From the NCBI RefSeq assembly GCF_056712565.1, contig NZ_CM160072.1: 64,000 nt of DNA; one strand, given 5' to 3'. The number at the start of each line of letters is the position of its first letter. Positions within the stretch are counted from its first letter, which is position 1. The position numbers are program-made. Shown piece after piece: positions 54,902 through 57,900 of this stretch.

Positions 54902-57900
54902 TAAATGCGTCTGACAGCAAAACAGGTGACATGGCTGAAAGTTTGCCTGCATCTTGCCGGATTGTTGCCGTTTCTCTGGCTGGCCTGGGCGATCAATCAC
55001 GGTGGACTGGGTGCCGATCCGGTGAAAGATATTCAGCATTTTACCGGTCGCACTGCACTGAAATTTTTGCTGGCGACCTTGTTAATCACACCTCTGGCAC
55101 GCTACGCAAAACAGCCGTTATTGATACGCACTCGCCGCCTGTTAGGCTTATGGTGCTTTGCCTGGGCGACACTGCATTTAACCAGTTACGCATTGCTGGA
55201 GCTGGGCGTGAATAATCTGGCGTTATTAGGTAAGGAGTTAATTACCCGGCCTTATTTAACGTTAGGTATTATCAGCTGGGTAATTTTGCTTGCGTTAGCG
55301 TTCACTTCAACCCAGGCGATGCAGCGAAAACTCGGCAAACACTGGCAACAGTTGCATAACTTCGTCTATCTTGTCGCGATCCTGGCCCCAATACATTATT
55401 TGTGGTCAGTGAAGATTATTTCACCGCAGCCACTCATCTACGCTGGGCTGGCGGTACTGCTTTTAGCCTTACGGTATAAGAAGTTGCTTTCCCTTTTCAA
55501 CCAGTTACGCAAGCAGGTTCACAACAAATTATCTCTATAACTTCATATTGCCAACAAAGTACGCGTTATCCCGGCCGGATGCGGCGCGAGCGCCCTATCC
55601 GGCCCACACAGATCGCATCAAGTTATGCTTCGTTTGTCATCAACCTTTCATCACCAGAATAATTTATTTTATTTCAATAAGATAGGAAAATACACCTGAG
55701 AAAACTATGCTCTCGTTTCCTAAGAGTTATTGCATTTCGCCATATGTTACAATATAACATTACACATCATGTACATTAACTCTGGAGGAAACTGTTTTGG
55801 CGATTCGTCTTCATAAACTGGCTGTTGCTTTAGGCGTCTTTATTGTTAGCGCTCCTGCCTTTTCGCATGGTCATCACTCACACGGCAAACCCTTAACAGA
55901 GGTCGAACAAAAAGCTGCTAATGGTGTTTTTGATGATACCAATGTACAAAACCGAACGCTCAGTGACTGGGATGGAGTCTGGCAATCCGTTTATCCTTTA
56001 CTGCAAAGTGGCAAACTTGACCCCGTCTTTCAGAAGAAAGCGGATGCAGATAAAACCAAAACATTTGCTGAAATTAAAGATTATTATCGCAAAGGTTATG
56101 TGACAGATATCGAGATGATTGGCATTGAGGACGGCATTGTTGAATTCCATAGACATAATGAAACAACATCCTGTAAATATGATTACGATGGATACAAAAT
56201 ACTCACCTATAAATCAGGCAAGAAAGGCGTTCGTTACTTATTCGAATGTAAAGATCCTGAAAGCAAAGCCCCTAAATATATTCAATTTAGCGATCATATA
56301 ATTGCACCACGAAAATCATCTCATTTTCACATTTTTATGGGTAATGATACCCAACAGTCTTTATTGAATGAAATGGAAAACTGGCCAACGTATTATCCAT
56401 ATCAGTTGAGTAGCAAAGAAGTGGTCGAGGAGATGATGTCTCATTGATTTTTTTGCGCTGACTTCAATTATTTAACAGAACAGTGCCTGGTAGTAACGAC
56501 AATAATTTACCAAGACAAATAAATAAGACAAACTCAGACACGCTCATGCTTGAGACGTGTCTTTTTTATTATGTCTGTAGAAAAAAACTGAGAAAACGGC
56601 GAACAATAAATACACAACTCACCAATACAGACTGGCTGCGCCAATGTCTCCAGGAGCAAGTCATCTGTCATGGTAAAGCTAACCAGAAATATAGGTTAAT
56701 TTTGGTATTTAAACCTTTTTTACTTGTTAGTATGATACAAAGGCTTTCAAAAAAGCTGGGAAATTCAACAACTCTTGGAAATTATGGACTTTGTCCCGCG
56801 GCTTTAATCTGACGGCCGCGTTCCTTTTTTGGCTCAATTATTGACCCCTTCTCTACGCAACTTCAGTTCCCGCCAGCAACTTTGCGGCAGTTTCATAGGA
56901 TCAATGTCTAAAAGAATAATGGTGACCGATAAGAAAACGACTGAATAACTGTAGATTTTCGCTCGAAACCTTCCTGTCAGACCCATAGCGAATCAAGTGC
57001 TGAATGTCACAGTATCGAACAGAAAACAGTGACGATCTAACCCTTCAAGAATATTCTACGATTGTTCTGTTTAGGAAAAGCAAGGCGGGAAGTCGGGAGA
57101 TAAGTCATTGATAAAGTGGCGGAGAGAGGGGGATTTGAACCCCCGGTAGAGTTGCCCCTACTCCGGTTTTCGAGACCGGTCCGTTCAGCCGCTCCGGCAT
57201 CTCTCCGTTCAGATGGTTGCCATGATGCCAGGAAATTTGGCATTTTAACAGTCCCTGTCCGTGCAATTTTGTTCAAGTGACGAGTTTGCGAGCAAAACGA
57301 TGATTAAGTGGCCCTGGAAAGTACAAGAATCAGCACATCAAACTGCCCTTCCCTGGCAGGAAGCACTATCGATCCCCCTTTTAACGTGTCTGACGGAACA
57401 GGAACAAAGCAAATTAGTCACTCTTGCCGAACGTTTTTTACAGCAAAAACGGCTTGTTCCTTTACAGGGCTTTGAGCTGAATTCATTAAGAAGCTGCCGG
57501 ATAGCACTTCTATTTTGCCTGCCCGTTCTGGAGTTAGGACTGGAATGGCTGGATAGTTTTCATGAAGTCTTAATTTATCCTGCGCCATTTGTGGTCGATG
57601 ATGAATGGGAAGACGATATCGGTCTGGTGCATAACCAACGTATTGTTCAGTCAGGTCAGAGCTGGCAGCAAGGGCCTATCGTTTTGAACTGGTTGGATAT
57701 ACAAGATTCTTTTGATGCTTCTGGTTTTAACCTGATTATTCATGAAGTCGCTCATAAGCTGGACACCCGTAACGGCGATCGCGCCAGCGGAGTTCCCTTT
57801 ATTCCGTTGCGTGAGGTTGCTGGCTGGGAACACGATCTTCATGCTGCAATGAACAACATTCAGGAAGAAATCGAATTGGTTGGCGAGAATGCGGCGAGCA

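What the first reader, a model, noticed from the sequence alone, without database searches (positions are those of the whole stretch)
56448..57117. No yodB between zinT and serU
In the K-12 order as I recall it (zinT, yodB, serU, mtfA, asnT), a 176-aa cytochrome b561-like membrane protein lies between zinT and serU. Here that interval is about 670 bp with only a low-complexity 109-aa ORF (56483..56812) that has no membrane-protein character, plus a zinT terminator. This looks like a strain-specific deletion or replacement adjacent to two tRNA genes.
Basis: partly seen in the sequence, partly recalled or inferred. Interest (0 to 1): 0.3.

Follow-up and report, generated by a model that had tools for sequence, protein, structure and literature searches.

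The report
Common yodB-less allele, ordinary spacer
The gap between zinT and serU really has no yodB gene, but this is a common natural E. coli variant found in about 42% of complete genomes; it is probably the older arrangement and is ordinary non-coding spacer.

Summary
The window is a B2-type E. coli chromosome, 100% identical here to ATCC 11775 and UTI89. Between zinT (55797-56447) and serU (57117-57206, minus strand) lie 669 bp with no yodB, no yodB remnant and no credible gene. K-12 has 1442 bp there, including yodB.

The variant is not strain-specific. The 222 bp after zinT that stand in place of K-12's 995-bp yodB segment occur in 2292 of 5426 complete E. coli genomes. yodB occurs in 3114, and no further genome has it at another site.

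It is probably not a deletion in this lineage. The 222 bp are colinear with, though diverged from, the E. albertii zinT-serU spacer, which also lacks yodB. No yodB orthologue of intermediate divergence turned up outside E. coli. The nearest relatives (72-77% identity, Citrobacter and Hafnia) sit beside phage lysis genes. So yodB looks like a gain in other E. coli lineages.

The yodB-less allele is strongly linked to the yersiniabactin island (HPI) inserted 1.6 kb away at asnT. The 109-aa ORF is spurious. This is an ordinary accessory-gene polymorphism of low interest.

The parts
55797..56447 (+). zinT (metal-binding protein ZinT), the left border gene
   Evidence: 216-aa ORF. RefSeq annotates it in the identical ATCC 11775 sequence. 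It is 97.2% identical in DNA to K-12 zinT, with 7 amino-acid differences.
56448..56669 (.). 222-bp allele-specific spacer that marks the yodB-less haplotype; it stands in place of K-12's 995 bp containing yodB
   Evidence: It has no similarity to K-12 except the terminator hairpin. It is present in 2292 of 5426 E. coli genomes at 93-100% identity. It is colinear with the E. albertii spacer along its whole length, with z = 4.6, 9.9 and 4.8 for its three parts.
56536..56567 (+). zinT intrinsic terminator: stem AGACACG/CGTGTCT, an inner CTCA/TGAG stem with a bulged A, then a T-run
   Evidence: Fold energy -17.9 kcal/mol, z = -3.8. It sits at the same offset from the zinT stop in K-12 and E. albertii. 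One stem pair is A-T in E. coli and G-C in E. albertii, read from the alignment.
56483..56812 (+). 109-aa GTG ORF, spurious
   Evidence: No Pfam match (best E = 0.14). Never annotated in RefSeq. It spans the boundary between the allele-specific and shared segments. It is broken by stops in the 93.7%-identical allele of strain 97_3250, and E. albertii lacks about 112 bp inside it.
56670..57116 (.). 447-bp spacer on the 3' side of serU, shared by both alleles
   Evidence: 96.2% identical to K-12 interval positions 996-1442 without gaps. The last 223 bp are 74% identical in E. albertii, and the last 146 bp are 93% identical in Escherichia sp. MOD1-EC7003. No Rfam family and no Pfam hit for its small ORFs.
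56708..56830 (+). Promoter-like site (56708-56736) followed by a terminator-like hairpin (56797-56820) and T-run (56821-56830); status unknown
   Evidence: Promoter consensus match 9 of 12. The hairpin appears in the fold, but the overall z is only -1.2. E. albertii lacks this stretch. In E. coli it is bracketed by CCTTTTTT at 56714-56721 and 56823-56830.
57117..57206 (-). serU, tRNA-Ser(CGA), the right border gene and a known integration hot spot
   Evidence: Found by ARAGORN and Rfam at 57 bits. It is 100% identical to K-12.
58274..59700 (+). Left end of the High-Pathogenicity Island (HPI) at asnT, with a disrupted integrase; genetically linked to the yodB-less allele
   Evidence: In ATCC 11775 RefSeq annotates an integrase pseudogene with an internal stop, followed by ybtS.

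Best explanation
Window 56448-57116 is plain non-coding spacer and belongs to one of two long-standing E. coli haplotypes of the zinT-serU interval. This haplotype consists of the zinT rho-independent terminator, about 100 bp of AT-rich spacer, and then 447 bp shared with all E. coli up to the 3' end of serU. The other haplotype (K-12, O157:H7 and others) has about 995 bp carrying yodB in place of the first 222 bp. That much is shown.

The yodB-less form is most likely the ancestral Escherichia arrangement. yodB was most likely brought into part of the species as foreign DNA, plausibly phage cargo, given that serU is a prophage attachment site. The yodB-less allele lies 1.6 kb from asnT. It travels with the yersiniabactin island, which is known to spread together with its flanks by homologous recombination. 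The direction of the change, the phage origin and the hitch-hiking are inferred, not shown. The only functional consequence is that these strains lack one of E. coli's cytochrome b561-family paralogues.
For: Alignment: window 56670-57116 matches K-12 at 96% without gaps. Window 56448-56669 does not align to K-12 except for the hairpin.

Population: the 222-bp segment is in 2292 of 5426 genomes and the yodB segment in 3114 of 5426. Sensitive blastn with the yodB CDS still finds only 3114 genomes, so yodB-less genomes do not carry it elsewhere.

Outgroups: E. albertii has zinT, then 567 bp, then serU and mtfA, with no YodB. Its spacer aligns colinearly with the window's 222 bp (local alignment of 8-220 against 13-231; z = 4.6 to 9.9). 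K-12's flanks do not align, with z below 1.5. Escherichia sp. MOD1-EC7003 also has no yodB after zinT.

YodB relatives: identity jumps from 99% in E. coli to 77% or less in other taxa. The apparent 84-92% hits are frameshifted E. coli copies. The 72-77% relatives lie between phage lysis and terminase genes in Citrobacter and metagenomes. In Hafnia the relative lies next to holin, lysozyme and antiterminator Q genes. In another Citrobacter lineage it lies near a Lambda_Bor gene.

serU as a phage site: phage SerU-LTIIb, and Sp14 and Stx1d prophages (PMC8190617, PMC9729726).

Linkage: the integrase/HPI junction at asnT is in 2443 genomes. At most 421 of the 3114 yodB+ genomes have it contiguous, against 1230 yodB-less genomes with fully contiguous loci. 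The large STEC-type strain 97_3250 (5.9 Mb) carries the yodB-less allele together with HPI. Schubert et al. 2009 showed that HPI moves together with the neighbouring yeeI (mtfA) flank (PMC2606025).
Against: The direction of change rests on only two outgroup genomes.

Similarity between the B2 and E. albertii spacers is weak, about 63% identity, and blastn alone did not report it. It shows only in global and local alignment against shuffled controls.

The yodB segment has no insertion signature. There are no direct repeats, integrase or att remnant, and its G+C (41%) matches the neighbourhood. Its flanks share nothing with the Citrobacter prophage copies beyond the coding sequence. No zinT-yodB donor was found among 80 ZinT loci.

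The link with HPI could simply reflect shared phylogroup ancestry. About 900 yodB-less genomes are split by an island at serU and could not be scored directly.
Confidence: 0.75

Rival explanations
1. yodB was ancestral at this site and was deleted, with some reshaping of the spacer, in the ancestor of B2 and related lineages. E. albertii and the cryptic-clade strain lost it independently.
For: yodB is the majority state, in 3114 of 5426 genomes. It is under purifying selection: the CDS is at least 99% identical in 3002 carriers, while the whole 995-bp segment diverges more. The interval is deletion-prone: 1442, 669, 567 and about 150 bp in four Escherichia genomes. The yodB segment shows no signature of insertion and no compositional contrast.
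Against: There is no yodB scar at DNA or protein level. The 97 bp that occupy yodB's place in the window align with E. albertii and not with K-12's yodB flanks. Independent deletions would not be expected to leave colinear junctions. No Escherichia species other than E. coli yielded a YodB orthologue in a 5.8-billion-protein database.
Confidence: 0.2
2. yodB is not missing but sits elsewhere in this genome, or survives in the interval in another frame or as the 109-aa ORF.
For: None found. Only the window, not the whole genome, was available directly.
Against: The window is 100% identical here to complete genomes such as ATCC 11775 and UTI89. Blastn at about 65-70% sensitivity with the yodB CDS hits exactly the same 3114 genomes as megablast, at one or two places each. 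Adding the 2292 yodB-less genomes gives 5406 of 5426, which is consistent with, but does not by itself prove, one allele per genome. tblastn of YodB against all six frames of the window finds nothing. The ORF has no family and is not conserved.
Confidence: 0.02
3. The spacer hides an unannotated function: an roughly 90-nt small RNA from the promoter-like site at 56708-56736 to the hairpin and T-run at 56797-56830. This would make the interval more than filler.
For: A promoter-like match and a GC hairpin with a T-run lie in the right order and spacing. The unit is present in both E. coli alleles with few differences. It is precisely the part missing from E. albertii.
Against: Promoter-like hits are no more frequent than in shuffled sequence (3 found against 2.0 expected). 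Fold z is -1.2, with 26 of 200 shuffles as good. No Rfam family matches. The hairpin could be a leftover or the distal terminator of yodB in K-12-type strains.
Confidence: 0.1

Closest known systems
E. coli K-12 zinT-yodB-serU locus (b1973-b1975)
   Same: Same flanking genes and order (msrPQ, zinT, serU, mtfA, asnT). The zinT terminator hairpin is homologous and lies at the same offset. The 447 bp next to serU are 96% identical.
   Different: K-12 has 995 bp with yodB where the window has 222 unrelated bp. K-12 has yeeJ after asnT where the window has the HPI.
E. albertii zinT-serU spacer (NBRC 107761, locus L004)
   Same: It has no yodB. The order is zinT, terminator, spacer, serU, mtfA, asnT. 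It is colinear with the window along the whole interval.
   Different: It is strongly diverged, about 63% identity in the first 220 bp and 74% in the last 223 bp. It lacks about 112 bp, corresponding to window 56722-56830.
Spread of the HPI with its chromosomal flanks by homologous recombination (Schubert et al. 2009, PMC2606025)
   Same: The window carries HPI at asnT, and the yodB-less allele lies 1.6 kb upstream, just beyond the yeeI/mtfA flank that the paper showed to be co-transferred. The allele is strongly associated with HPI across 5426 genomes.
   Different: The paper sequenced only about 0.8 kb upstream and does not mention yodB. Co-transfer of the yodB state is my inference.
Prophage cargo genes (morons) between the lysis and packaging modules of lambdoid phages
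   Same: The nearest relatives of YodB outside E. coli occupy exactly that position, on the opposite strand to the phage genes.
   Different: E. coli yodB has no phage genes around it, and its flanks share nothing with those prophages. The window has no such gene at all.

Membership tests
yodB / cytochrome b561 family (Pfam PF01292) | An ORF of about 176 aa in the interval with sequence similarity to YodB | tested here: not met
   tblastn of K-12 YodB against the whole window gives a best E of 0.32, and only a 12-residue chance match (E = 4.3) inside the interval. Pfam finds nothing for the interval's ORFs.
Deletion scar or pseudogene of yodB | Residual yodB or yodB-flank nucleotide sequence at the junction | tested here: not met
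   blastn with word size 7 finds only the terminator hairpin and the shared 447 bp. Semi-global scores of window 126-222 against both K-12 yodB flanks give z of 0.7 or less.
tRNA-associated genomic island or prophage remnant | An integrase gene and/or a direct repeat of the tRNA 3' end bounding the variable segment | tested here: not met
   There is no copy of the serU 3' end other than the gene itself, allowing about 20% mismatches, in either allele. There are no direct repeats in the K-12 interval and no integrase ORF. Real islands at serU and asnT exist but lie outside this interval.
Rho-independent terminator (of zinT) | A GC-containing hairpin directly followed by a T-run downstream of the stop codon, conserved in relatives | tested here: met
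   Fold energy -17.9 kcal/mol, z = -3.8, with the T-run at 56562-56567. It is conserved at the same offset in K-12 and E. albertii, with one A-T to G-C compensatory pair. The simple scanner missed it because of the bulge.
Known small-RNA families (Rfam 15) | A covariance-model match at or near the gathering score | tested here: not met
   Only the two tRNAs pass. The other hits are far below threshold, and those that touch the interval overlap serU.
Species-wide presence/absence (accessory-gene) polymorphism | Both states are frequent, mutually exclusive and at the same locus in many independent genomes | tested here: met
   2292 genomes have the yodB-less allele and 3114 have yodB, out of 5426. 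The total of 5406 is consistent with one allele per genome, and nearly every genome has one place per allele.

The most novel reading that the evidence does not exclude
yodB is listed as an ordinary K-12 chromosomal gene. It may instead be a domesticated prophage cargo gene that entered only part of E. coli next to the serU attachment site. Under this reading the ancestral yodB-less haplotype seen here is carried around the species as part of the recombining flank of the yersiniabactin island. A smaller possibility is that the shared spacer encodes an E. coli-specific small RNA of about 90 nt (56743-56830).
Probability: 0.4. Interest if true: 0.25.

Novelty: already known. Interest (0 to 1): 0.12.

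Why it matters
It matters little. The result shows that a gene order learnt from K-12 does not hold for about 42% of E. coli, including the type strain and most extraintestinal pathogenic lineages. The 'missing' gene is more likely an addition in K-12-type strains than a loss here. This is mildly useful for anyone studying the cytochrome b561 paralogues (CybB, YceJ, YodB), because B2 strains are natural yodB nulls. It is also mildly useful for tracing how far the recombining flank of the HPI extends. It does not reveal a new kind of element or mechanism.

Tried and rejected
- **Hidden yodB in another frame or elsewhere:** rejected.
- **The 109-aa ORF and three smaller ORFs as genes:** no Pfam hit. 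The ORF is not conserved and is never annotated.
- **Rfam scan of 55500-58400:** found only the two tRNAs.
- **att-like partial copies of serU or repeats flanking the K-12 yodB segment:** none.
- **Compositional evidence for foreign origin of yodB:** none. The whole neighbourhood is 38-42% G+C.
- **Nucleotide similarity between K-12 yodB flanks and the Citrobacter prophage copies:** only the CDS matches, at 71.6%.
- **Sequenced phages carrying yodB:** only a host-flank fragment in phage SerU-LTIIb and distant Acinetobacter yceJ-like genes.
- **A zinT-yodB neighbourhood in other genera as a possible donor:** none among 80 ZinT loci.
- **ZinT protein search to reach more Escherichia outgroups:** uninformative, because 90% clustering merges them with E. 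coli.
- **YodB hits at 84-92% identity as possible orthologues from other Escherichia:** they are frameshifted E. coli copies or error-prone assemblies.
- **A structured serU 3' terminator in 56980-57125:** the fold is no better than shuffles.
- **One literature search:** wasted because 'serU' matched 'serum'.

Full report
**What is in the window.** The region is an E. coli chromosome of the type found in phylogroup B2. Window 55700-57300 is 100% identical to the type strain ATCC 11775. The 670-bp interval is 100% identical to UTI89, S88, APEC O1, IHE3034, NU14 and many others. That these strains belong to B2 is my own knowledge. The genes are msrP, msrQ, zinT (55797-56447, +), tRNA-Ser(CGA) serU (57117-57206, -), mtfA (57300-58097, +) and tRNA-Asn asnT (58198-58273, +). 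After asnT come a disrupted tyrosine integrase and ybtS, which mark the left end of the yersiniabactin High-Pathogenicity Island, HPI.

**Checking the observation.** A K-12-type genome has zinT, yodB (176 aa, 'cytochrome b'), serU, mtfA and asnT, with a 1442-bp zinT-serU interval. In the window the interval is 669 bp. tblastn of K-12 YodB against all six frames of the 64-kb window finds nothing better than E = 0.32. Sensitive blastn between the two intervals finds no yodB DNA. So the absence is real and there is no scar.

It is a bulged hairpin at 56536-56562 followed by a T-run. Its fold energy is -17.9 kcal/mol against -8.5 for shuffles, z = -3.8. The simple consensus scanner missed it.

The 109-aa ORF (56483-56812) is not a gene. 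It has no Pfam match and is never annotated in RefSeq. It straddles the junction between allele-specific and shared DNA. It is interrupted by stop codons in a 93.7%-identical version of the same allele. E. albertii lacks about 112 bp inside it.

**Anatomy of the difference from K-12.** Window 56670-57116 (447 bp) aligns without gaps to the last 447 bp of the K-12 interval at 96.2% identity. That is ordinary divergence for this region: zinT is 97.2%, msrQ 97.3% and mtfA 99.0%. Window 56448-56669 (222 bp) stands in place of the first 995 bp of the K-12 interval. The only recognisable shared piece is the terminator hairpin, which sits at the same distance from the zinT stop in both (29 of 37 bases identical). 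The difference is therefore a replacement of 222 bp by 995 bp, not a clean deletion. The breakpoints are at the zinT stop codon and 447 bp from serU.

**How common it is.** The 222-bp segment is found in 2292 of 5426 complete E. coli genomes, once each, at 93-100% identity. The K-12 995-bp segment is found in 3114. The yodB coding sequence searched at roughly 65-70% sensitivity hits the same 3114 genomes and no others. The two states add to 5406 of 5426, which is consistent with one allele per genome, and yodB-less genomes do not carry yodB elsewhere.

Carriers of the yodB-less allele include:
- ST131, 536 and ATCC 11775;
- an isolate whose name suggests ST648 (GPEC60-33-648);
- E. coli C122;
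- an O111:H11 strain and the large STEC-type strain 97_3250 (5.9 Mb).

Carriers of yodB include K-12, O157:H7, O103:H2, O111:H8 and strain 042. The variant is a species-wide dimorphism, not a strain-specific event, and it is not confined to one phylogroup.

**Which state is older.** A scan of one genome per species with ZinT as query recovered two other Escherichia.

E. albertii has msrQ, zinT, a 567-bp spacer, serU, mtfA and asnT, and no YodB. Its spacer aligns colinearly with the window's allele-specific 222 bp. A single local alignment covers 8-220 against 13-231. Semi-global scores against shuffles give z = 4.6 before the terminator, 9.9 at the terminator and 4.8 after it. The corresponding K-12 segments give z below 1.5 against E. 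albertii and against the window, apart from the hairpin. One stem pair of the hairpin is A-T in E. coli and G-C in E. albertii, a compensatory change (read).

Escherichia sp. MOD1-EC7003 also lacks yodB. There zinT is followed after about 5 bp by the last 146 bp of the spacer, and serU is interrupted by an island with an integrase.

A search of 5.8 billion proteins with YodB shows a gap in identity. E. coli proteins are at 99-100% and the next full-length relatives are at 77% or less. The few hits at 84-92% are frameshifted or error-laden E. coli copies: their DNA is 99% K-12 or their context is the E. coli locus. If yodB had been inherited vertically in the genus, orthologues at roughly 85-95% would be expected, and none appeared.

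Taken together, the yodB-less arrangement in the window is most likely ancestral, and the yodB haplotype is a later acquisition. I put this at about 0.7. It rests on two outgroup genomes and weak non-coding similarity, and blastn alone did not report the similarity in the first 222 bp.

**Where yodB may have come from.** The closest relatives outside E. coli were looked up in their contigs:
- In Citrobacter portucalensis (76% identity) the gene lies on the opposite strand between a holin-lysozyme-Rz lysis cassette and HNH-TerS-TerL-portal genes.
- A 495-member metagenomic cluster has the same placement.
- In Hafnia paralvei it lies next to Rz-like, lysozyme, holin and antiterminator Q genes.
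- In another Citrobacter lineage it is chromosomal but 2.7 kb from a Lambda_Bor gene.
- A Salmonella homologue (65%) is in an unrelated chromosomal context.

This is the classic position of prophage cargo genes. serU is a documented prophage site, used by phage SerU-LTIIb, Sp14 in O157:H7 and an Stx1d prophage in O121:H7 (PMC8190617, PMC9729726). A phage-borne origin for E. coli yodB is therefore plausible.

It is not shown, however. The K-12 segment has no phage genes, no repeats and no att remnant. Its G+C matches its surroundings. Its flanks share nothing with the Citrobacter prophages beyond the coding sequence.

**Linkage with the HPI.** The junction of mtfA, asnT and the HPI integrase is present in 2443 genomes.
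- A synthetic query requiring yodB, the shared DNA and the integrase in one piece is satisfied by at most 421 of the 3114 yodB+ genomes.
- A chained query requiring the 222-bp allele, mtfA and the HPI end is satisfied by 1230 genomes.
- Judging from evenly spaced rows of that ranking, roughly 900 further yodB-less genomes are split by an island at serU and cannot be scored, and at most a few hundred are yodB-less without HPI. These two figures are estimates.

Strain 97_3250 has the yodB-less allele directly followed by serU, mtfA, asnT, a frameshifted integrase and ybtS. Schubert et al. 2009 showed, by phylogeny and by experiment, that HPI spreads within E. coli by homologous recombination of large fragments that include the upstream yeeI (mtfA) flank (PMC2606025). 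The yodB-less allele lies just beyond that flank, so hitch-hiking is a reasonable inference. Shared ancestry of HPI-rich phylogroups could produce much of the same association.

**What the spacer does.** The supported functions are the zinT terminator and filler on the 3' side of serU. No Rfam family matches. The serU 3' flank is not unusually structured.

One small unit is worth recording. A promoter-like site (56708-56736) is followed by a GC hairpin (56797-56820) and a T-run. Both E. coli alleles have it. E. albertii lacks it, and in E. coli it is bracketed by CCTTTTTT repeats. Its fold is not better than chance (z = -1.2), and promoter-like hits are at background frequency. I rate a small RNA at about 0.1.

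**Verdict.** It is wrong on scope, because the variant is not strain-specific, and probably wrong on direction, because it is not a loss in this lineage. The finding is an ordinary accessory-gene polymorphism of a known kind, with a modest evolutionary footnote about yodB's probable foreign origin and its linkage to the HPI.

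Noticed in passing
window 58274-59700 and beyond: The yersiniabactin High-Pathogenicity Island is inserted at asnT. Its integrase is a pseudogene: an internal stop in the identical ATCC 11775 sequence, and a frameshift in strain 97_3250. The same mtfA-asnT-integrase junction is in 2443 of 5426 genomes.
   Followed up: partly
window 57117-57206 (serU) and locus L003 4800-8600: serU is an integration hot spot. Alignments of many genomes break at or inside serU, roughly 900 yodB-less genomes are split there, and Escherichia sp. MOD1-EC7003 has an integrase-bearing island in it. Phage SerU-LTIIb and the Sp14 and Stx1d prophages use the same site.
   Followed up: partly
window 56708-56830: A promoter-like site is followed by a GC hairpin and T-run. 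The stretch is bracketed by CCTTTTTT repeats and is exactly the part missing from E. albertii. It could be an unannotated small RNA or merely a leftover terminator. Fold z is only -1.2 and there is no Rfam hit.
   Followed up: partly
loci L083, L084, L091-L094, L088-L090: The closest relatives of YodB outside E. coli (72-77% identity) sit as opposite-strand cargo genes between phage lysis and packaging genes in Citrobacter, Hafnia and metagenomes, or near a Lambda_Bor gene. No orthologues of intermediate divergence from other Escherichia species were found.
   Followed up: yes
window 55541-55796: The msrQ-zinT spacer is only 91.4% identical to K-12, against 97% for the flanking genes. It contains a REP-like, sub-threshold naRNA4 match at 55539-55604.
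   Followed up: no
window 55797-56447: ZinT differs from K-12 ZinT at 7 of 216 residues (H6Y, T48A, R98H, V102A, H120N, T185S, K207E, written window to K-12). By my own judgement that is rather many for an E. coli core protein.
   Followed up: no
loci L037 and L078: Two metagenome-assembled genomes, labelled Bacillota and Bacteroides, contain contigs that are plainly E. coli zinT-yodB-serU-mtfA at 96-100% identity. This indicates binning contamination.
   Followed up: no
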